Shown here piece by piece: positions 49,271-56,919 of a stretch of DNA of 64,000 nucleotides. Below the pieces are notes generated by a model. It saw nothing but the letters and a program-made list of their open reading frames with translations. It searched no databases and was not told the DNA's origin. The position numbers and the translations under genes were made by a program. This stretch comes from Arenicella sp. (GTDB lineage Bacteria; Pseudomonadota; Gammaproteobacteria; Arenicellales; Arenicellaceae), in NCBI GenBank assembly GCA_050633585.1, contig JBOEGT010000036.1:13951-77950 (forward strand). The letters run 5' to 3'. Every line of letters begins with the position of its first letter. Position 1 is the stretch's first letter.

Positions 49271-49632
49271 TTTTCTATCTCCTTTTCATCGCCATGACCC
49301 TATGCCACGACCTGTTATAGCGTGAGAAGCTCTCAACGATCAGAAGGCGGGCGAAAAATGTCTACTGATTGTATGAATGGTTCACATTTGTGAAACTGCC
49401 TGTTTTGCTAGTGCTTCCGGTTCTCGTTCTTGAGAATTGCAATAACAAATGATCACCATTCATTTCATCAGTGTCGATAAAACGCGCGGGCCTTAAGCTC
49501 GCTGCAAAGCGTCAACTCTTCAATAACAAACATGCCCATCTGGCATTGCCGCAACTGCGTGATTGACGTTTTGCGTGAGAACTTCTCACTTTTCAAATAG
49601 CGCTTGCGCGCTGATAAAACCAACGGGAGGTT

Positions 49633-49709
49633 GGTGGATTAGACGGGAATCGAACCCGTAACCCGCGAATGATGAGTTCGCTGCTCTAACCAATTGAGCT
49701 ACTATCCAG
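49633..49709 (-). tRNA. tRNA-like gene, anticodon CAU (Met/Ile2-type), with a defective acceptor stem; possible pseudo-tRNA
   Basis: Reverse complement: TGGATAG-TA-GCTC-AATTGGTTA-GAGC-A-GCGAA-CTCATCA-TTCGC-GGGTT-ACGGG-TTCGATT-CCCGT-CTAATCC-A-CCA. The D, anticodon and T arms are canonical. The acceptor 5' strand TGGATAG does not pair with CTAATCC, as if shifted by one nucleotide, and position 37 is C. Confidence 0.5.
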
Positions 49710-50591
49710 TTGGTGTCTGATCAGTCATGTTTTTGAGGCATACCAAGTCCACATGTGGTTGGCACCAGACTGGATTCAAGAACCAGTTATCGTTTCAAAA
49801 TGATGAGTTGATCGAACTCTGTCTAACACTGTTTCCTTAGAGTTCCCTGTCTCAATATTCAGCGTTGATGCTGCATGCAATTTATTCTTAATGAATATTG
49901 CTGAATATTGAGCATAAAAAAACCTCGAAGGCGGCTGCCATTCGAGGTTTGCAAATGCATATCAAGAAGGCTGCCAACGCAGCCTTCGAATAATCGTGAC
50001 TACGTGTCTAAATTTTTTCCACTTTCTGCGCTTTGGCGTTGCACACGGTGAGCAACGATTCCCGCAGGGTCATCTGCATGACGTGCTTGCGAGCGCATCT
50101 CTACGTTACGCGGCGAATCAGCTAATCGCTGAAAACCGTGTATTGAGAGGTTTAAATTTTGTATTGAATATTTCATGGGAGCGGGAATATACGCCTAAAA
50201 AATGAGTTGTCAAATATTTTTTTGAGAAATAAAAAATATTTATCTATTTATTAGTGTTTTGTTAAGTGGTTGTTTTTTATTGATTTTATTTTTTTGAAAA
50301 TATTTTATAAATATGGAGCATTTCGCTATTCATCGTCATATTTTTTAATGAATTTGAGTTGAAAATGCAAGATGAATGAGCAATAAAATTCAATTTCAAA
50401 CACTAGTAATTTTTGTTTATAGGTATGTTGAATAGTGTCGTTTTGTCATGCGTGGCTTTTTTTGTGGAGGTTTTTTTGTTTGGTTGGCGACTCATTTTTC
50501 TTTGATGAAAATGAGCTATTCCTCTAAAACGTATTGCGACATTTATCTCGCAATCACGTTTCAGAGGATAGTCAAAGAATGAATTTTTAGA

Positions 50592-52664
50592 CTAAAAATC
50601 TTCTATAAATTCGCTACCAACAACATGCCTCAACCACCAATCATCATTTGAAATCGGTTCGCCGCACTTATCTAAAATAGACAGTGATGGGCAGCTTCCC
50701 GCTTGACCAGATATAGTGATGTAATCTCCATCAAATGATGTAAAGCTGACTTCCATTTGGTCGTCATAGGTAGGAGCCTGTTCGATCAATATACCCACAG
50801 CAATGCGTTCGCCCATGCGTAGGCTGTCATAGTAGTCAGAATAGTAATGCACGCCTGCCATGTTACGGCCAATCGAAATATTTGCGGCTAGCTTATCCAG
50901 TTCTCCCTGTATGGTAAGTTTGCCTTCAAATTGCTCATCTCTTGTTAAGGTTTCACCGGGTTCAACGCCTTTTTTAGTGGGTGCAATATCAGGTCGAAAA
51001 GCAAAATCTAGTGTCCGTTCGGTCTTACTATCACAGTCTTCATACATCTCAAAAAAAGCTTTAAGCATGGTGACGCATCCGCCAGCCACTGTTGCGTGAC
51101 CAGCACCATAGGCCGGATGCATTGGCGAACCTTCTGGGAAGGCCATAGGCAGTAAAAGGTTTGCTTTGTCAAAGCTGCTGTCGGTGATTTTTTTACCATG
51201 AAGAGAAGGCAAAATGTCATTTTTTACAGTGACTTTGCTATCTTTCGCTTTGGCCTTTTGTTGATTATTGTGCTCGATAACCGCTTTTAAGAGATGTTTG
51301 TCAATGCCATGTAACGAGTCTTTGAAGGCATCTCCAGCACAACCTAAGTCTTTGGTGCCACCTAATTGACTGACGGTGTATCTCGCGCCCATTACCTCTG
51401 GTCTTGCGCGACGATGGTAGTTAAACTTTTGTCGGCGTACCCCTTTTAAGCAACGCGTCGCCACTTCAGTGACTAAGGACAAAATATGTGGTCCCCCAAA
51501 GGTGGCAAACGAGTCTCTTTTCCCGGAAGGGCTGGGTTCTGGAAAGCCCTTTGAAAAAGGGACGCCATTGCCAAGAAGGATTAATCCAGCATTGAGATAG
51601 GCTTCATAGAGAGCATCAAAATGAACATATGTGGCGAGATCTCTTGGTGTGGTGATAAAGCGTTTTTTTGACTCATATTTATCCAAGCCTTTAAAGTTTG
51701 CTCCGTTTTGCACGTCCATCCATGATGACCAGTCTGTCATATAATCAAGCCCGTTTAAGTGGGTAATTGTGCGCTGATCAATCGTCAAAGAACCATAGCC
51801 AATGTAACCATTTTGGTTTGAAAATGCTGATGAATCACAGCTTTTGCTGATGGTATTACCGGCTATTGAGTTGTTTCCGACGAGTAAGAATTGCGAGATG
51901 TAATGCCCTTTTTTTGCACCTTCGGTTGATCCTCTAAATAGAGTTTCTAAGGATATTTTTCCTTCACAGTCGAGTCTAGCATCGCGTCGGTTGCGTTCGA
52001 ATCGGTCCAGTTTAACGTTGCCGCTGACATAATGCATGCCGTTTAATGCCGACACGACTTTTGTTGGAGTAATAGTGGCATGACCTCCATTAATGCAAGT
52101 GTTATCGCCTGCTTCAATGCGTTCAAACGGTACATCACGCAACAACGCTAAGCTATAGACTTCGGCCATTTCAAAACCGACTTCATTACTTTTTCCGGCT
52201 AATCTTGGCGCTGGAGCCATGCCAACCGCACCTGCATCTGGGCCTTGTAGCTCATAAGTATGCCCTGCCCGTGGGCTTTCCCAGCCGCGCCATTGGGTTT
52301 CTCCTTTTTCGGTTTTAGGGCAATTGAAGGATAAATTGCTTTCGGCCATACGGTCTTCAGCGGATAACACATGATTTTCGAATAATGAGCGATCTTCTGA
52401 GTTAATGGCTTCGACAAACTTTCTATAGTCAGTAGCGTCATCTACCAGTCCCGTGTGTGGGTTGTGGAACAAACCTTTGGTGAAGTTGGTTGGGTAACCC
52501 GATTCTTGAGGTGAGCTAGGACCAAAATCTTGCTCTTCAAGGTTTGATGATGTTTTCGCTTGAGGGCGAAGTCTGGCGACTTCGGTGGCGAGATCGCGAA
52601 ACTTTTTTGCGGCTTTTGCGCGGCTTGAGCCGTTCTGGCTGGGTTCTGAAAATGGTAATTTCAT
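50592..52664 (-). CDS. vanadium-dependent haloperoxidase family protein (PAP2/acid-phosphatase superfamily, large bacterial type)
   Basis: About 690 aa from the Met at 52664 (MKLPF), which has a GGAG Shine-Dalgarno sequence 7 nt upstream. The tripartite PAP2/V-HPO motifs are K-x6-RP (KFNYHRRARPE), PAYGAGHAT and R-x5-H-x3-D (GRNMAGVHYYSDYYD). The size fits a V-haloperoxidase rather than a small phosphatase of about 250 aa. Confidence 0.6.
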   Translation of the reverse strand: MKLPFSEPSQNGSSRAKAAKKFRDLATEVARLRPQAKTSSNLEEQDFGPSSPQESGYPTNFTKGLFHNPHTGLVDDATDYRKFVEAINSEDRSLFENHVLSAEDRMAESNLSFNCPKTEKGETQWRGWESPRAGHTYELQGPDAGAVGMAPAPRLAGKSNEVGFEMAEVYSLALLRDVPFERIEAGDNTCINGGHATITPTKVVSALNGMHYVSGNVKLDRFERNRRDARLDCEGKISLETLFRGSTEGAKKGHYISQFLLVGNNSIAGNTISKSCDSSAFSNQNGYIGYGSLTIDQRTITHLNGLDYMTDWSSWMDVQNGANFKGLDKYESKKRFITTPRDLATYVHFDALYEAYLNAGLILLGNGVPFSKGFPEPSPSGKRDSFATFGGPHILSLVTEVATRCLKGVRRQKFNYHRRARPEVMGARYTVSQLGGTKDLGCAGDAFKDSLHGIDKHLLKAVIEHNNQQKAKAKDSKVTVKNDILPSLHGKKITDSSFDKANLLLPMAFPEGSPMHPAYGAGHATVAGGCVTMLKAFFEMYEDCDSKTERTLDFAFRPDIAPTKKGVEPGETLTRDEQFEGKLTIQGELDKLAANISIGRNMAGVHYYSDYYDSLRMGERIAVGILIEQAPTYDDQMEVSFTSFDGDYITISGQAGSCPSLSILDKCGEPISNDDWWLRHVVGSEFIEDF

Positions 52665-53063
52665 CTTATGTCTCCGTACTGTCATGATTAACAAAAGTGT
52701 TGTTTTAAAACGCCTGAGTATGTATCTAACATCATGGATGTTGATTTGATTCATGCGTGCCGATAAGCGAATCTCCTTCTTTGGTTTTTATCCTTTTGCT
52801 ATGAGTCCTATGCAGTTCCTGAGTCGCTAGCCTTGATTCCTATCGCGAAGTCAGTATCTTCCTTAGTCCATTTGCATCATTAAAAAATCAATATTTCTTT
52901 TGTAGCGGCTGACTAATCATCTAATCACTTGCTGCCACTCAGAAATACGGAGCCCAGAGACAACCTGTCTCAAATATCGGCTGCAAAACGATAACAACTC
53001 ATACTCTGTTGGACGGCTTGTCTAACAAAATTTTTAATTACTTATCCTTCATTTAAGGTTTCC

Positions 53064-53513
53064 TTAAGTCATGCGACGAGATAAAAATAAGCCAATTAAC
53101 ATAAATGCGACGCCGAAAAACCGTGTGCTATTTAAAGGCGTGGCTTGCGTACTGAATAAGCCGAAATGGTCGATAATGGAGGCAGATATCACTTGCCCCA
53201 ATAGGACAAAAAAGATTGAATTACCCACGCCGTAACGAGGCACTAACCAGGTAATTGATAGTACGTAAAATGCAACAAACATGCCGCCAATGTAAAGGTA
53301 AATAGGCACCATTTTAAATGTTTTCATGGCTGGGAAACCTTGTATAAATGTGGCTGATAAGCAAATTAAAAAAGCCCCCAAAAACAGAATAGTCGCAGCA
53401 GTGGTTGTTGAATCTAAGCGTAAACCAAGTCTGCTACTAATGCTGGCCATGACAGGAATTCCAATGCCTGCCACCAATGCTAATGTCGAATAATATAGAG
53501 TTGATGACATCAT
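53064..53513 (-). CDS. YdcZ/DUF606-type small DMT-family transporter
   Basis: 149 aa with four to five TM segments. Confidence 0.5.
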   Translation of the reverse strand: MMSSTLYYSTLALVAGIGIPVMASISSRLGLRLDSTTTAATILFLGAFLICLSATFIQGFPAMKTFKMVPIYLYIGGMFVAFYVLSITWLVPRYGVGNSIFFVLLGQVISASIIDHFGLFSTQATPLNSTRFFGVAFMLIGLFLSRRMT

Positions 53514-53716
53514 TAACGACTCATTTTACGACGTTGAGTTACTGTGTCACCACCAATTCCCCAATTATCGGTTTGCACGACATCAATGGTCACAATAGTT
53601 GTTTCTGGGTTTTTATTTAGCTCTCGTTGTAATAGTTCAGTGACAGATTTGATAAGTGTGGCTTTTTTTTCGGTGGTTAAGTTTTCTGGTGTGAGTTTGA
53701 AATTGACGTATGGCAT
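53513..53716 (-). CDS. tautomerase (4-oxalocrotonate tautomerase-like) family protein
   Basis: 67 aa starting with the Met-Pro catalytic N-terminus (MPYVNFKL...). A GIGG motif is present, and the start has an AGGA Shine-Dalgarno sequence. The track ORF extends 14 codons further upstream. Confidence 0.6.
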   Translation of the reverse strand: MPYVNFKLTPENLTTEKKATLIKSVTELLQRELNKNPETTIVTIDVVQTDNWGIGGDTVTQRRKMSR

Positions 53717-53816
53717 GGTTTTGTTCCTATTCTCTTGCTTGAGAGTTGACGATAACAACTTCCTTTATTCATTTAAAATGATTGTTTTTGCATTTTAATA
53801 TCAATATTATTGATGA

Positions 53817-54674
53817 ATGGATTATCTTTTATTAAATACTTTTCTACAGGTTGCTCGGTGTGGCAGTTTTTCTAAAGCCGCTGATGCAATGAATTGCGTT
53901 CAATCGAATGTCACCGCTCGTATCAAGCGTCTAGAGTTATATTTTGATCAAGTGTTGTTTGAACGTGGGCGAGGAGGTGCTCGTTTAACGGAGTTTGGGC
54001 GCCAGCTAGAATCTCAAGCCACAGAGTTAATGCGAGCGCATGAAAAAGCTGAGCAAGAGCTCTTAGATGCAGCAGGTAAATCGGCCAAACTGAAGCTGGG
54101 TTCCATGGAAACCACTGCCGGTGCTCGTCTACCAAAAGTTCTGAAATGGCTTTCATCACAGGCACCTGAAGCCGAGTTATCTTTGCAAACAGGGACAACT
54201 GGAGAATTAACATTAAAGGTCTGGGAACGTGAAATTGATGCGGCTTTTGTTGCAGGTCCTGTTGATGAAAAAAGATTTCACTGTATTCCTGTGTTTGCAG
54301 AAAAACTCGTGTTGGCAAGGCCTACCAAAGGTCAAGAGGCATTAGTATTTATGGCGTTTCGTAATTCATGCAGTTATCGCAATATTTCAAACCAATGGCT
54401 GAGGATGTCTGGAAAAAGTGATACAAAAACCATCGAGATGGGAACGCTTGACGGCATTCTTGGTTGTGTTGAAGCCGGAATGGGTTTTGCTATTTTTGCA
54501 GAAAGTGCCATTAATACTTATCGTGAATTTGACAATATCACGGTGGAACAACTGCCCGCAGAGATTGCTAACACGACAACATATTTAATATGGCGTTATG
54601 ACCATAAACCCAGCCAAACGCACCAAAAATTGATGAATTATTTTTCGGAATTAAGCTGCGAAAAAGAAAAATAA
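53817..54674 (+). CDS. LysR-family transcriptional regulator
   Basis: 285 aa with a LysR HTH (LLNTFLQVARCGSFSKAADAMNCVQSNVTARIKRLE). It is divergent from the tautomerase-ydcZ pair. Confidence 0.8.
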   Translation: MDYLLLNTFLQVARCGSFSKAADAMNCVQSNVTARIKRLELYFDQVLFERGRGGARLTEFGRQLESQATELMRAHEKAEQELLDAAGKSAKLKLGSMETTAGARLPKVLKWLSSQAPEAELSLQTGTTGELTLKVWEREIDAAFVAGPVDEKRFHCIPVFAEKLVLARPTKGQEALVFMAFRNSCSYRNISNQWLRMSGKSDTKTIEMGTLDGILGCVEAGMGFAIFAESAINTYREFDNITVEQLPAEIANTTTYLIWRYDHKPSQTHQKLMNYFSELSCEKEK

Positions 54675-55474: not shown

Positions 55475-56089
55475 ATGTCGAATAATAATATACGCACTTT
55501 TGTTGGCTTACCGATCCCTGAACCACTATTGAACCACCTGAGTATCATGGCATCCAGCTTGGCTGCATTGGATGCGAATCGTATGTCGTGGGTGATTGAG
55601 AAAAACTATCATTTGACGCTTTTATTTTTAGGCGAACAATCACCACAGTGGTTGGATGATTTTGCACAAGCCTTAGATGAGGAGCTCTATTTTGAACCCC
55701 AAGAACTGTCCGTTTCACGTATTTTGCCCTTTCCCGAGAGTTCACCCAGGCTTTTAGCGGCGATTGTAGACGACACAGATAGCCTAGTGGCATTGCATCA
55801 TGATATTAAACGTATTGCAGCAAGTTTGGGCCACCAAGCCGAAAAGCATCGCTTTATGCCTCACATTACCTTAGCCAGAAAGTTTCCTCGTCATGGCCAT
55901 CAAAGTATTCCACCTGCGGTCGATAAAATTTCTGGCGAGGCCAGAGAACTCGTTGTTTATGAGAGTCAGCTTCATCAAGACGGCGCCCGCTATTTTCCAT
56001 TATATGGCTATGAAGCGGTCACCTACGATGGATATGATGACAACGGTTACGATGTTGAAAGTTATGATATTGAGGCTAAAGCCGTTTAA
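55475..56089 (+). CDS. thpR: RNA 2',3'-cyclic phosphodiesterase ThpR (2H / LigT family)
   Basis: 204 aa with two H-x-T-x motifs (HLTLLFLG and HITLAR). Confidence 0.7.
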   Translation: MSNNNIRTFVGLPIPEPLLNHLSIMASSLAALDANRMSWVIEKNYHLTLLFLGEQSPQWLDDFAQALDEELYFEPQELSVSRILPFPESSPRLLAAIVDDTDSLVALHHDIKRIAASLGHQAEKHRFMPHITLARKFPRHGHQSIPPAVDKISGEARELVVYESQLHQDGARYFPLYGYEAVTYDGYDDNGYDVESYDIEAKAV

Positions 56090-56919
56090 TGAAAGTAGAC
56101 TTACATTGTCATAGCCATTTTTCAGATGGCACATTGACTCCTACAGAAGTTGTCGATTTAGCGGTCAAAAACGATGTTGAATTATTGGCTTTGACGGACC
56201 ATGATTCAGTTCAAGGTTTAGAAGAAGCACGTCAACGCTGTCAATTTCACGGTATTAAAATGATTGATGGTGTTGAAATTTCAGTCAGTTGGAATGGATA
56301 TAGTATCCATGTTGTTGGCTTAAATATTGATGATCAACATCCAAATATGATCGCACTATTGGAAAAAAACGCCATTCTTCGCCATGACCGTGTTGTCAAA
56401 ATGATAGAAAAGCTTCAGGCAATCGACTTAGATGTAATGCCTTATTTAAACACTGTTATCCCAGACAATGGCTTGATTACCCGCACTCATCTTGGGCGAG
56501 CATTGGTTGAAATTGGTGCTGTCAATAAAATGGATAAAGCGTTTAAGAAGTACCTTGGCAAAGGCAAATGCGCGTATGTTGAGGGCAATTGGGTGAGCCT
56601 AAGTGATGCGGTTCAAGCCATTATAGATTCTGGTGGAGATGCTGTGATTGCACACCCCATGCGTTATCGCATTGGTGCGACACGTTTAGACGCATTGGTG
56701 AGTGATTTTGCTAAAGCGGGTGGCAAAGGCTTGGAAGTCGTGACGGCAACACAAGATGTGAATCAACAGCGCCGGTGTTTGCAACTCGCTGAGCAATATC
56801 AATTGCAGGCTTCAATCGGTTCAGACTTTCATAGCTTGGACCAACCATGGGCAATGCTGGGTCGATGCCCTTCTCTGCCAGCAAAAGCCATCCCAATTTG
56901 GCAAAACTGGTCGGACTAA
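56089..56919 (+). CDS. PHP-domain 5'-3' exoribonuclease / nucleotidase (TrpH/YciV, RNase AM-like)
   Basis: 276 aa with the PHP N-terminal motif VDLHCHSHFSDG. The start overlaps the thpR stop. Confidence 0.7.
   Translation: MKVDLHCHSHFSDGTLTPTEVVDLAVKNDVELLALTDHDSVQGLEEARQRCQFHGIKMIDGVEISVSWNGYSIHVVGLNIDDQHPNMIALLEKNAILRHDRVVKMIEKLQAIDLDVMPYLNTVIPDNGLITRTHLGRALVEIGAVNKMDKAFKKYLGKGKCAYVEGNWVSLSDAVQAIIDSGGDAVIAHPMRYRIGATRLDALVSDFAKAGGKGLEVVTATQDVNQQRRCLQLAEQYQLQASIGSDFHSLDQPWAMLGRCPSLPAKAIPIWQNWSD

What the first reader, a model, noticed from the sequence alone, without database searches (positions are those of the whole stretch)
49271..53063. Solitary vanadium-haloperoxidase-type gene embedded in 1.7 kb of AT-rich noncoding DNA beside the tRNA
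The ORF of about 690 aa carries all three PAP2/V-HPO active-site blocks (K-x6-RP, PAYGAGHAT, R-x5-H-x3-D) and has the size of algal and bacterial vanadium bromo/iodoperoxidases. It is monocistronic. It is flanked by a 1.3-kb segment with no ORFs of 100 aa or more, including an extremely AT-rich stretch at 50206-50590 and the tRNA-like gene, and by a 400-bp AT-rich leader at 52665-53063. The leader contains GAGACA-acc-TGTCTC and other palindromes. This looks like a horizontally acquired halogenating or peroxidase gene under elaborate regulation. A V-HPO in a heterotrophic marine gammaproteobacterium could act in halometabolite production, quorum-signal halogenation or oxidative defence. The annotated N-terminal 30 aa (MNQIN...) are probably not translated.
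Basis: partly seen in the sequence, partly recalled or inferred. Interest (0 to 1): 0.7.

Follow-up and report, generated by a model that had tools for sequence, protein, structure and literature searches.

The report
Vanadium bromoperoxidase gene beside RNA-repair operon
The gene is a real but ordinary bacterial vanadium bromoperoxidase, and the 'non-coding, tRNA-bearing' DNA beside it is the promoter, leader and tRNA-like RNA of a neighbouring RNA-repair operon, not the enzyme's control region or an insertion scar.

Summary
The ORF is real (50592-52664, minus strand, 690 aa from the second ATG). It is a full-length relative of solved vanadium bromoperoxidases: 40% identical to Acaryochloris AmVHPO (E 2e-141), with every vanadate-binding residue and the Arg that marks bromide-type enzymes. 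It belongs to a family with thousands of marine bacterial homologs that NCBI already names 'vanadium-dependent haloperoxidase', and its relatives are stand-alone genes in unrelated neighbourhoods. So the enzyme call is supported but ordinary.

The rest of the reading is not supported. GC, GC3 and codon usage are normal. The 399-bp leader has average intergenic GC, chance-level palindromes, no unusual fold and no conservation.

The 'tRNA' is a tRNA-like RNA. Copies sit about 370-550 nt upstream of Band-7 in all 25 proteobacterial loci examined, usually followed by RtcB. This is the predicted 'band 7-associated tRNA'. None of the 80 related loci has a V-HPO nearby.

The 1.3-kb 'empty' flank holds that module's conserved promoter, a conserved leaderless 42-58-codon ORF ending 12-13 nt before a hairpin and terminator, and a covarying structured RNA joined to the tRNA-like gene. 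The AT-rich tract is the junction upstream of that promoter. This leader architecture is the only possibly new element.

The parts
50592..52664 (-). Vanadium-dependent bromoperoxidase-type gene (690 aa; stop codon at 50592-50594). Catalytic set: K413, R421, H516, G522-H523, R600, H606. Selectivity position R410.
   Evidence: PDB phmmer E 4e-121 to 5LPC and E 5e-118 to 1e-115 to the Corallina enzymes. BLASTP 40% identity, E 2e-141, to AmVHPO. At least 4493 homologs, several named V-HPO or bromoperoxidase by NCBI. The residues are invariant in alignment A1. Residue mapping.
52665..52754 (-). In-frame upstream extension (30 codons, MNQIN...) that is probably not translated. The SD GGAG at 52675-52672 serves the ATG at 52664.
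   Evidence: All 12 homologs aligned start at MKLPFSEP. The near-identical NCBI protein P0001 is 690 aa. SD spacing.
52665..53063 (-). 399-bp intergenic leader between YdcZ and the V-HPO gene. No recognisable regulatory element. It contains the palindrome at 52957-52971.
   Evidence: GC 0.386 equals the intergenic mean. Palindromes at chance. Fold z=-0.7. No sigma-70-like site on the minus strand. Not conserved upstream of homologs.
50516..50571 (-). Long stable hairpin about 20 nt after the V-HPO stop codon. Likely 3' end or terminator of the V-HPO transcript.
   Evidence: Fold of 50500-50600(-): -33.5 kcal/mol, z=-6.1, 0 of 200 shuffles as stable. Coordinates.
50206..50590 (.). AT-rich tract (GC 0.27) with many A-runs. 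It is the junction between the V-HPO 3' end and the RNA-repair module, and its promoter-proximal part lies directly upstream of that module's promoter (UP-element-like position).
   Evidence: Composition. Position relative to the promoter.
50186..50213 (-). Conserved sigma-70-type promoter of the RNA-repair module: TTGACA (50213-50208), 16 nt, TATATT (50191-50186), followed by the GC-rich discriminator CCCGCTCCC.
   Evidence: Best promoter-like match in 49000-53900, 11 of 12. Conserved in L002, L008 and L007, in a second conserved version in L003, L004, L005 and L009, and as weaker matches in L017 and L022.
50000..50176 (-). Conserved leaderless small ORF (58 codons here). The ATG is 9 nt after the -10 box. 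The stop is the TAG inside the conserved ACGTAG motif.
   Evidence: The ORF is open in 8/8 loci (42-58 codons), while 15 of 16 alternative forward frames contain stops. The stop lies 10-16 nt (mostly 12-13) before hairpin 1. The peptide is weakly constrained. NCBI calls a 58-aa gene here.
49916..49987 (-). Hairpin 1 (49987-49966), conserved GCATTTGCAAAC (49958-49947), and an intrinsic terminator CCTCGAA...TTCGAGG plus T7 (49947-49916).
   Evidence: RNAalifold consensus: 11 of 26 pairs have compensatory changes. Alignment. Fold of the whole unit z=-4.2. Coordinates.
49707..49800 (-). 'Block C': a conserved three-helix structured RNA that abuts the 5' end of the tRNA-like gene.
   Evidence: 93.4% of cells paired against 28-42% in slid controls. 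12 of 22 pairs changed on both sides. 0 of 500 shuffles reach any of the five measures. Covariance model hits at the same position in L001-L010, L015, L017, L019, L021, L022 and L039.
49632..49708 (-). [quoted passage not shown] Its acceptor stem is 6 bp plus a bulged A, position 37 is C, and CCA is encoded.
   Evidence: ARAGORN. Rfam tRNA 54.4 bits with a gap in the 5' acceptor strand. A same-strand tRNA-like gene lies 370-550 nt upstream of Band-7 in all 25 proteobacterial loci, with variable or aberrant anticodons. Literature.
49271..49634 (-). Conserved structured leader between the tRNA-like gene and Band-7. Hairpins at 49634-49620, 49611-49600 (GNRA-type loop) and 49589-49575, then conserved patches down to the Band-7 SD at about 49283.
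   Evidence: Alignment A2 with A-U to G-C covariation (GTGAGAAGTTCTCAC against GTGGGAAGTTCCCAC). blastn conservation over 49817-49551.
45741..49270 (-). RNA-repair module genes: Band_7/SPFH (48134-49270), RtcB RNA ligase (46832-48028), and a conserved 311-aa protein of unknown family (45741-46676).
   Evidence: Pfam Band_7 4e-29 and RtcB 8e-133. The gene order is conserved in L002, L005-L009 and L018. The 311-aa protein has no hit in any library.

Best explanation
Two unrelated units lie side by side.

(1) 50592-52664(-) encodes a cytoplasmic vanadium-dependent bromoperoxidase of the Corallina/Acaryochloris type. The N-terminus has no signal-peptide-like hydrophobic stretch. By homology, vanadate is held by His606 (covalent) and by Lys413, Arg421, Gly522-His523 and Arg600. 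H2O2 forms a peroxo-vanadate that oxidises Br- (and I-) to a hypobromite-level species. That species halogenates electron-rich compounds or consumes a second H2O2. Arg410, the equivalent of AmVHPO R425 and CpVHPO R397, predicts bromide/iodide chemistry rather than efficient chloride chemistry. The gene is a stand-alone member of a very large marine bacterial family and is not part of a biosynthetic cluster. It ends at a strong hairpin. Its promoter is unidentified.

(2) Everything from about 50213 down to 45741 is a portable Band-7/RtcB RNA-repair module. In order it has: a conserved strong promoter, a leaderless short ORF, a hairpin and intrinsic terminator, a structured RNA (block C) fused to a tRNA-like RNA (b7a-tRNA), a structured leader, then Band-7, RtcB and a 311-aa protein. 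The AT-rich tract is the junction and upstream region of that promoter.

Shown: the homology, the residues, the conservation, the covariation and the synteny. Inferred: the enzyme chemistry and halide preference, transcript ends, and how the module is regulated.
For: V-HPO:
- The only PDB sequence hits at E<=10 are vanadium bromoperoxidases, E 4e-121 to 7e-30.
- 40% identity over 682 columns to AmVHPO.
- K, R, H, G-H, R, H and D are invariant among 13 family members.
- The Arg three residues before the catalytic Lys matches AmVHPO R425 and CpVHPO R397, the bromoperoxidase state, whereas chlorinating enzymes have Trp (PMC11871015).
- There are at least 4493 homologs, with NCBI names 'vanadium-dependent haloperoxidase' or 'bromoperoxidase'.
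- Three homolog contexts are unrelated and each gene is stand-alone.
- Composition is normal.

Module:
- 80 Band-7 loci were examined and none has a V-HPO within 10 kb.
- A tRNA-like gene lies upstream of Band-7 in all 25 proteobacterial loci.
- The literature predicts a b7a-tRNA next to Band-7 and RtcB (bioRxiv 10.1101/312249).
- The promoter is conserved.
- The ORF frame is kept open in 8/8 loci.
- The terminator and block C show covariation.
- There is no synteny beyond the module.
Against: - There is no biochemical evidence for activity or halide preference.
- Pfam and NCBIfam have no model that detects this protein even at E<=10, so membership rests on pairwise and PDB comparisons.
- No promoter was recognised in the V-HPO leader, so read-through from the tautomerase-YdcZ genes cannot be excluded.
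- Ancient horizontal transfer of the V-HPO cannot be excluded. Identity to homologs is flat (56-61%) across Alpha- and Gammaproteobacteria, Planctomycetota and Acidobacteriota, which suggests transfer within the family's history.
- Transcript boundaries in the module are predictions only.
Confidence: 0.85

Rival explanations
1. One reading: the V-HPO is a recently acquired island gene, inserted next to a tRNA gene and placed under elaborate control by a long AT-rich, palindrome-bearing leader.
For: The V-HPO is absent from the neighbourhood of Band-7 in all 80 related loci. The family is spread across phyla at similar identity. An AT-rich tract abuts the gene.
Against: GC, GC3 and codon usage are normal. 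There is no att repeat and no integrase domain nearby. The 'tRNA' is part of the neighbouring module. No synteny at all survives between these genomes outside the module, so absence elsewhere says nothing about insertion here. The leader is compositionally average, unstructured and unconserved, with chance-level palindromes.
Confidence: 0.1
2. The protein is a PAP2-type acid phosphatase or other non-halogenating relative that merely keeps the shared phosphate/vanadate-binding motifs.
For: V-HPOs and PAP2 phosphatases share the three motifs (established knowledge). No curated V-HPO profile scores the protein.
Against: Full-length similarity, including the large N-terminal helical region, is to bromoperoxidases only. 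No phosphatase chain matches at E<=10. The Pfam PAP2 profile does not match. The residues specific to haloperoxidase catalysis are present: His516 = AmVHPO His513, Glu129 = Glu139, Arg410 = Arg425.
Confidence: 0.03
3. The V-HPO and the RNA-repair module are functionally coupled, for example peroxide or hypohalite stress paired with RNA repair, and are co-regulated through the shared intergenic region.
For: They are adjacent and on the same strand in this genome and in the 99%-identical L001.
Against: The adjacency is seen nowhere else: 0 of 80 Band-7 loci and 0 of 3 V-HPO contexts. A strong hairpin ends the V-HPO unit, and the module has its own conserved promoter.
Confidence: 0.03
4. For the flank only: the promoter-to-terminator unit (50177-49916) encodes a real small protein that works with Band-7/RtcB, or is a stand-alone sRNA, rather than a translation-sensing leader.
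For: The frame is open in 8/8 loci. Variation at a conserved A-Y-G motif is mostly third-position, and summed differences at codon positions 1/2/3 are 79/73/111. It has its own terminator. The fold has z=-4.2.
Against: The peptide is poorly conserved (5 synonymous against 13 non-synonymous codon changes between the close pair L003 and L004). It matches no family. In L002 only 20 nt separate the terminator from block C, so the downstream RNAs and genes appear to depend on read-through from this promoter.
Confidence: 0.4

Closest known systems
AmVHPO, the vanadium bromoperoxidase of Acaryochloris marina (PDB 5LPC; variants 8Q20-8Q22)
   Same: 40% identity over the full length. It has the same catalytic Lys, Arg, His, Gly-His, Arg and His, the same Arg at the selectivity position R425, and the same Glu139 and His513 equivalents.
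   Different: This protein has a 40-residue C-terminal extension (SG.AGSCPSL...DWWLRH..G.E..D) that is conserved in the bacterial clade and lies beyond the end of the solved chains. There are several insertions and deletions in the N-terminal half. The host is a heterotrophic gammaproteobacterium rather than a cyanobacterium.
Corallina officinalis and C. pilulifera vanadium bromoperoxidases (PDB 1QHB, 1UP8)
   Same: E 5e-118 to 1e-115 over nearly the full length. Arg at the CpVHPO R397 position.
   Different: Those are eukaryotic red-algal enzymes of about 600 aa without the C-terminal extension.
Ascophyllum nodosum VBPO (1QI9, 5AA6), and the NapH1, Curvularia VCPO, Zobellia VIPO and AQ-VHPO group
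   Same: The same superfamily and the same vanadate chemistry.
   Different: The Ascophyllum enzymes match best over the C-terminal catalytic region (E 1e-36 and 7e-30). NapH1, VCPO and VIPO chains are not detected at E<=10. The AQ-VHPOs are site-selective, do not release HOBr and have implied extracellular roles. Nothing suggests this protein belongs with them.
[quoted passage not shown]
   Same: A tRNA-like gene lies on the same strand upstream of Band-7 and RtcB, and the arrangement is conserved across many lineages.
   Different: As far as I could read, the following were not described: a conserved promoter with a leaderless short ORF and terminator, a covarying 94-nt RNA fused to the 5' side of the tRNA-like gene, and a conserved third gene of 311 aa. 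The original paper was not available to me, so this is uncertain.
Rsr(Ro60)/YrlA Y-RNA/RtcB operon of Salmonella
   Same: A tRNA-mimicking non-coding RNA is encoded next to RtcB.
   Different: There is no TROVE/Ro protein among the neighbours and no Rfam Y-RNA or YrlA match. There is no RtcR or RtcA. Band-7 takes the place of Ro.
Leader-peptide transcription attenuators (trpL, hisL and similar)
   Same: A short ORF whose product is barely conserved, ending just before a hairpin and an intrinsic terminator, upstream of the operon it would control.
   Different: The ORF is leaderless and 42-58 codons long. No conserved antiterminator pairing and no run of regulatory codons was identified. Non-coding RNAs lie between the terminator and the first protein gene.

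Membership tests
Vanadium-dependent haloperoxidase, Corallina/Acaryochloris bromoperoxidase clade | Full-length sequence homology to biochemically and structurally characterised members | tested here: met
   PDB phmmer E 4e-121 (5LPC) and 5e-118 (1QHB) over residues 38-680 of the 720-aa ORF. BLASTP 40% identity, E 2e-141.
Vanadium-dependent haloperoxidase, Corallina/Acaryochloris bromoperoxidase clade | Vanadate-binding set: Lys, Arg, Gly-His, Arg and the covalent His, in the three PAP2-like blocks | tested here: met
   K413, R421-P422, H516, G522-H523, R600, H606 and D610 are aligned to AmVHPO and invariant in 13 homologs.
Vanadium-dependent haloperoxidase, Corallina/Acaryochloris bromoperoxidase clade | Arg three residues before the catalytic Lys (AmVHPO R425, CpVHPO R397; Trp in chlorinating enzymes) | tested here: met
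   The sequence VRRQK has R410 at this position (alignment). Its role is described in PMC11871015.
Vanadium-dependent haloperoxidase, Corallina/Acaryochloris bromoperoxidase clade | Vanadate- and H2O2-dependent oxidation of bromide or iodide | not testable with these tools
   This needs expression and a monochlorodimedone or thymol blue assay.
PAP2 acid phosphatase (non-halogenating) | Match to the PAP2 profile, or closest relatives that are phosphatases | tested here: not met
   No Pfam family at E<=10. No phosphatase chain in the PDB at E<=10.
Site-selective bacterial VHPOs (NapH1-like, AQ-VHPO) | Sequence similarity to NapH1 or AQ-VHPOs; co-location with a biosynthetic cluster (NapH1-type) or secretion signals (AQ-VHPO) | tested here: not met
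   NapH1 was not detected at E<=10. No biosynthetic genes lie within 10 kb. The N-terminus MKLPFSEPSQNGSSRAK has no hydrophobic signal (read directly). AQ-VHPO sequences themselves were not available for comparison.
tRNA-linked genomic island | A genuine tRNA gene, an integrase, direct repeats of the tRNA 3' end, and deviant composition | tested here: not met
   The tRNA-like gene has a bulged acceptor stem and C37 and travels with Band-7. No integrase domain. No repeat. Composition z-scores are within +/-1.2.
Band-7/RtcB RNA-repair module with b7a-tRNA | A tRNA-like gene encoded next to a Band-7 domain protein and RtcB | tested here: met
   The order tRNA-like, Band_7, RtcB is on one strand. 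The same tRNA-like/Band-7 arrangement is seen in L001-L025. The definition is as cited.
Rsr/Y-RNA (YrlA) module | An adjacent Ro60/TROVE protein and a Y-RNA with a Ro-binding stem | tested here: not met
   No TROVE domain among the neighbours. Rfam finds only tRNA.
Leader-peptide transcription attenuator | A short translated ORF followed by an intrinsic terminator upstream of the regulated genes | tested here: met
   The ORF is open in 8/8 loci, its stop is 10-16 nt before hairpin 1, and a conserved terminator follows. In L002 only 20 nt separate the terminator from block C.
Leader-peptide transcription attenuator | A mutually exclusive antiterminator structure, and translation-dependent read-through | tested here: inconclusive
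   By inspection of alignments A2 and A5, no alternative pairing is conserved across loci. Read-through cannot be tested here.

The most novel reading that the evidence does not exclude
The '1.3 kb of non-coding DNA' may be a previously undescribed control region for a Band-7/RtcB RNA-repair operon. A strong, conserved promoter would fire a leaderless mRNA whose 42-58-codon ORF ends 12-13 nt before a hairpin and terminator. How well ribosomes initiate on and translate this ORF would then set read-through into a composite non-coding RNA (the three-helix block C plus the b7a tRNA-like RNA) and into the Band-7, RtcB and 311-aa genes. Translation damage would in this way induce RNA repair in cis, without an RtcR-type regulator. 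The V-HPO gene itself has no part in this.
Probability: 0.2. Interest if true: 0.6.

Novelty: new member of a known kind. Interest (0 to 1): 0.25.

Why it matters
For the finding as posed, it matters little. Corallina/Acaryochloris-type vanadium bromoperoxidases are already annotated in thousands of marine bacteria, and this copy has no context that points to a specific product or pathway. It adds one more heterotroph (Arenicella-like) that may make hypobromite-level oxidants, which bears on marine organobromine and bromoform budgets.

The useful result is corrective. A tRNA-like gene and a long ORF-poor stretch next to a gene of interest are not evidence of an island or of complex regulation of that gene. 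Here they belong to a neighbouring RNA-repair module.

That module is the part worth a specialist's attention. As of the 2018 preprint that cites it (the only paper the library search returned for the term), the b7a-tRNA had not been validated experimentally. This analysis supplies exact coordinates, a conserved promoter, a conserved leaderless ORF with terminator, and a covarying companion RNA, all of which are directly testable.

Tried and rejected
- Pfam, NCBIfam and PADLOC scans of the V-HPO gave nothing, even at E<=10. Profile-based V-HPO versus PAP2 discrimination was therefore impossible, and I used PDB and pairwise comparisons instead.
- Rfam, at gathering thresholds on the whole window and at E<=1 on 48900-53900, found only the tRNA-like gene. 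There was no riboswitch, Y-RNA or known sRNA.
- I first read the promoter-to-terminator unit as a pure non-coding RNA. I withdrew that after finding the frame open in 8/8 loci.
- I looked by eye for a conserved antiterminator. Two candidates were not conserved across loci and I dropped them: the UUCGAAGG segment against the terminator's 5' arm, and the terminator loop against the arms of hairpin 1.
- Searches for an att-type repeat of the tRNA 3' end, and for direct repeats around the gene, gave nothing meaningful.
- A synteny search for an 'empty site' failed because no gene order outside the module is shared with the relatives.
- The original Burroughs and Aravind 2016 paper could not be retrieved. 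Its content is cited second-hand from 10.1101/312249.
- The 311-aa third gene gave no hit in Pfam, NCBIfam, PADLOC, PHROGs or PDB sequences.
- I did not build a formal phylogeny, because sequences of NapH1, VIPO and VCPO were not retrievable with these tools.

Full report
THE OBSERVATION

The ORF exists at 50592-52754 on the minus strand, 720 codons from the first ATG. The segment 49271-50591 has no ORF of 100 aa or more and contains one ARAGORN/Rfam tRNA call, CAU anticodon, at 49632-49708(-). The stretch 50206-50590 has GC 0.27, against 0.417 for the window and 0.383 for all intergenic DNA. The palindrome GAGACA-ACC-TGTCTC is at 52957-52971.

Three details need correction. The lysine block is K-x7-RP, not K-x6-RP. 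The 399-bp leader has GC 0.386, exactly the intergenic average, so it is not AT-rich for this genome. Its palindromes are what chance gives: 2 with 6-nt arms observed, 1.35 +/- 1.47 in dinucleotide shuffles, 36% of shuffles do as well, and the window as a whole has 2.0 per 399 nt.

All twelve homologs aligned begin at MKLPFSEP. The 99%-identical NCBI protein P0001 is 690 aa. GGAG lies 7 nt before the ATG at 52664, while the ATG at 52754 has no properly spaced Shine-Dalgarno.

WHAT THE PROTEIN IS

Pfam and NCBIfam detect nothing, even at E<=10, so profile-based discrimination was not possible. A direct search of all PDB chain sequences is unambiguous. At E<=10 it returns ten distinct chains, all vanadium bromoperoxidases (one deposited simply as 'haloperoxidase'):
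- Acaryochloris marina AmVHPO (5LPC, E 4e-121) and its R425 variants.
- Corallina officinalis and C. pilulifera enzymes (1QHB, 1UP8 and relatives, E 5e-118 to 2e-115), matching almost end to end.
- The two Ascophyllum enzymes, more weakly (E 1e-36 and 7e-30), with the best-scoring stretch in the C-terminal catalytic region.

No acid phosphatase, NapH1, fungal chloroperoxidase or Zobellia iodoperoxidase chain is detected. BLASTP against the AmVHPO sequence printed gives 40% identity over 682 columns, E 2e-141.

To map residues I used the AmVHPO numbering in PMC11871015 and the 27-residue offset of the PDB chain, which I derived from K428 and R425 in the alignment. In 690-aa numbering the protein has K413 (= K428), R421, H516 (= active-site His513), G522-H523, R600, H606 and D610. 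It also has Glu129 (= Glu139) and Arg410 (= R425 = CpVHPO R397). All are invariant among 13 family members. That paper reports Arg at this position in the Acaryochloris and Corallina bromoperoxidases and Trp in chlorinating enzymes, and shows that R425S converts AmVHPO into a chloroperoxidase. The sequence therefore predicts a bromide/iodide enzyme. The N-terminus has no hydrophobic signal, so the enzyme is probably cytoplasmic (read directly from the sequence).

HOW ORDINARY IT IS

The large protein database returns at least 4493 homologs. The best 120 are 56-67% identical over 96% of the length. They come from marine Pseudomonadota MAGs, Coralliovum, Roseibium, Algicella, Thiosocius, Methylococcales, Planctomycetota and Acidobacteriota. 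Several are already named 'vanadium-dependent haloperoxidase' or 'bromoperoxidase' by NCBI.

Three homologs with long contigs sit in three unrelated neighbourhoods, each as a stand-alone gene: a phosphatase and asparagine synthase region, a PhoX and RND efflux region, and a sulfite reductase and epimerase region. 'Solitary' is therefore the norm for this family, not a peculiarity of this locus.

One feature separates the bacterial clade from the solved enzymes. It has a conserved 40-residue C-terminal extension (…SG.AGSCPSL…DWWLRH..G.E..D) beyond the point where the solved chains end, together with four invariant cysteines.

IS IT HORIZONTALLY ACQUIRED OR ELABORATELY REGULATED?

Against the other 49 ORFs of 150 aa or more in the window, the gene has GC 0.453 (z=+1.2), GC3 0.408 (z=+0.6) and a codon-usage distance with z=-0.2. 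There is no second copy of the tRNA 3' end anywhere in the window, no meaningful direct repeat, and no integrase domain nearby.

The leader folds no better than shuffled sequence (z=-0.7). It has no sigma-70-like site on the coding strand. It shares only GGAGACATAA..ATG, the ribosome-binding site, with the upstream DNA of the closest homolog. Downstream, a very stable hairpin (50571-50516, -33.5 kcal/mol, z=-6.1) follows the stop codon and probably ends the transcript.

Ancient transfer within the family is likely, because identity is flat across phyla. Nothing marks a recent event here. Synteny cannot be used either way, because no gene order outside the neighbouring module is shared with any relative.

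WHAT THE 'NON-CODING FLANK WITH THE tRNA' REALLY IS

Downstream on the same strand lie a Band_7/SPFH protein (48134-49270), RtcB RNA ligase (46832-48028) and a 311-aa protein with no recognisable family (45741-46676).

I used Band_7 to fetch 80 genomic loci. The closest are Arenicella-like gammaproteobacterial MAGs, and L001 (GCA_041156805.1) is 99% identical to the window. None of the 80 has a V-HPO, YdcZ, tautomerase or this LysR within 10 kb. Band_7-RtcB-311aa is conserved as a block in L002, L005-L009 and L018, and occurs rearranged in others.

Every proteobacterial locus, L001-L025, has a same-strand tRNA-like gene 370-550 nt upstream of Band_7. The 'anticodons' vary (CAT, TAG, GAT, TTT, TTG) or are aberrant, with 2- or 4-nt anticodons. 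Several loci have two tandem copies. In the window the element scores 54 bits on the Rfam tRNA model, but one nucleotide is missing from the 5' acceptor strand (giving 6 bp plus a bulged A) and position 37 is a C.

[quoted passage not shown] That preprint also states that the RNA had not been validated experimentally. I could not retrieve the original paper. The 'tRNA' is thus a component of the neighbouring RNA-repair module, not an integration landmark.

ANATOMY OF THE MODULE'S UPSTREAM REGION

Nucleotide conservation of 72-85% with L002-L009 covers 50198-50145, 50010-49907 and 49817-49551. The alignment and follow-up analyses show the following parts, in order on the minus strand.

(i) A promoter: TTGACA (50213-50208), 16 nt, TATATT (50191-50186). 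This is the best consensus match in the 5-kb region scanned (11/12). It is followed by a GC-rich discriminator. It is conserved in L002, L007 and L008, occurs in a second conserved form (GTTGTTGACGCAACTAA..GCGTATAGT) in L003, L004, L005 and L009, and has weaker matches in L017 and L022.

(ii) An ATG 8-9 nt after the -10 box, which is leaderless geometry. It opens an ORF of 58 codons here (50176-50000) and 42-54 codons elsewhere. The frame is open in 8 of 8 loci, whereas 15 of the 16 alternative forward frames contain stops. The probability of an open frame in mononucleotide shuffles is 0.04-0.10 per locus. In 7 of 8 loci the stop is the TAG of a conserved ACGTAG motif, and it lies 10-16 nt (mostly 12-13) before the next hairpin. 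The peptide is poorly conserved: L003 against L004 shows 5 synonymous and 13 non-synonymous codon changes. There is only a modest third-position excess overall (79/73/111). NCBI annotates a 58-aa gene here, and it matches no family.

(iii) Hairpin 1 (49987-49966), a conserved GCATTTGCAAAC, and an intrinsic terminator (49947-49916) with compensatory changes. The whole unit folds with z=-4.2.

(iv) A non-conserved spacer of 20-173 nt. It is only 20 nt in L002, which leaves no room for a separate promoter there.

(v) 'Block C' (49800-49707), a three-helix RNA. 93.4% of cells are paired, against 28-42% in slid controls. 12 of 22 pairs changed on both sides. 0 of 500 shuffles reach any of the five measures. 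A covariance model finds it butted against the 5' end of the tRNA-like gene in 16 loci, including distant ones.

(vi) The tRNA-like gene itself.

(vii) Three conserved hairpins and further conserved patches down to the Band_7 ribosome-binding site.

A similar short ORF plus terminator precedes the module in L011, L022 and L023. Rfam knows none of these elements.

MECHANISM

For the V-HPO I commit to the standard vanadium bromoperoxidase cycle, inferred from homology: a peroxo-vanadate on His606 oxidises Br-/I- to a hypohalite-level species. It would work in the cytoplasm, with no dedicated substrate pathway. Its likely roles are peroxide turnover or non-specific bromination.

For the flank, the best-supported reading is a single promoter driving, in order, the short ORF, the terminator, the composite RNA and the repair genes. 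The terminator would act as a control point. Whether that control senses translation (attenuation) or whether the ORF encodes a small protein partner remains open. I found no conserved antiterminator.

VERDICT

The enzyme identification is correct, but the enzyme is ordinary: a new member of a known and already annotated kind. The inferences drawn from the flanks are not supported. The flanks are explained by an adjacent, independently mobile Band-7/RtcB RNA-repair module with its predicted tRNA-like RNA. The leader architecture of that module is the only potentially new element, and it is not part of the V-HPO story.

Noticed in passing
window 50213-49916 (-): A conserved promoter is followed at 8-9 nt by a leaderless 42-58-codon ORF. 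The frame is open in 8/8 related loci and the peptide is barely conserved. The ORF ends 12-13 nt before a conserved hairpin plus intrinsic terminator, upstream of the b7a-tRNA/Band-7/RtcB genes. The arrangement looks like an attenuator.
   Followed up: yes
window 49800-49707 (-): A 94-nt three-helix RNA ('block C') with strong covariation is fused to the 5' side of the tRNA-like gene. A covariance model finds it at the same position in 16 loci. It is not in Rfam.
   Followed up: yes
window 49634-49271 (-): The roughly 360 nt between the tRNA-like gene and Band-7 are conserved. They contain three small hairpins (one with a GNRA-type loop, one with A-U to G-C covariation) and further conserved patches. 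The sequence ACCAAC occurs on both sides of the tRNA-like gene and could pair alternatively with GTTGGT.
   Followed up: partly
window 45741-46676 (-): A 311-aa protein is conserved as the third gene after Band-7 and RtcB (51-63% identical in L002 and L005-L009, 29-39% in more distant loci). It has no hit in Pfam, NCBIfam, PADLOC, PHROGs or PDB sequences. It is an uncharacterised component of the RNA-repair module.
   Followed up: partly
L003, L004, L005, L006, L009 (upstream of Band-7); L014 1842-3764; L026 7412-8117: Several loci carry two tandem tRNA-like genes upstream of Band-7, some with 2- or 4-nt 'anticodons'. In L014 an array of 18 tRNA genes directly follows Band-7, where RtcB sits in the window and its closest relatives. 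L026 has a 6-tRNA array upstream.
   Followed up: no
window 50592-50714 (-), residues 651-690 of the V-HPO: The bacterial V-HPO clade has a conserved 40-residue C-terminal extension (SG.AGSCPSL...DWWLRH..G.E..D) beyond the end of all solved bromoperoxidase chains, plus four invariant cysteines. Its structural role is unknown.
   Followed up: partly
window 50571-50516 (-): A very stable imperfect hairpin of roughly 20 bp (-33.5 kcal/mol, z=-6.1) lies just after the V-HPO stop codon, without a clear U-tract. The V-HPO homologs in L082 and L083 also have strong hairpins after their stop codons.
   Followed up: partly
window 55475-56919 (+): A LigT/2H-phosphoesterase-like protein (2',5' RNA ligase family) and a PHP-domain protein are encoded about 6 kb from the RtcB module. 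This may be coincidence or a second RNA-end-processing function in the region.
   Followed up: no
window 50442-50484 and 53648-53690: A 43-nt T-rich direct repeat (72% identity) brackets the V-HPO and YdcZ genes. The second copy lies inside the tautomerase ORF. The sequence is low-complexity and the match is probably chance.
   Followed up: no
window 53513-54674: A LysR-family regulator (best NCBIfam resemblance PtrR-like, below cutoff) is divergent from a tautomerase-YdcZ pair that lies on the same strand as the V-HPO and upstream of it. Because no promoter was found in the V-HPO leader, read-through from this pair is possible.
   Followed up: partly
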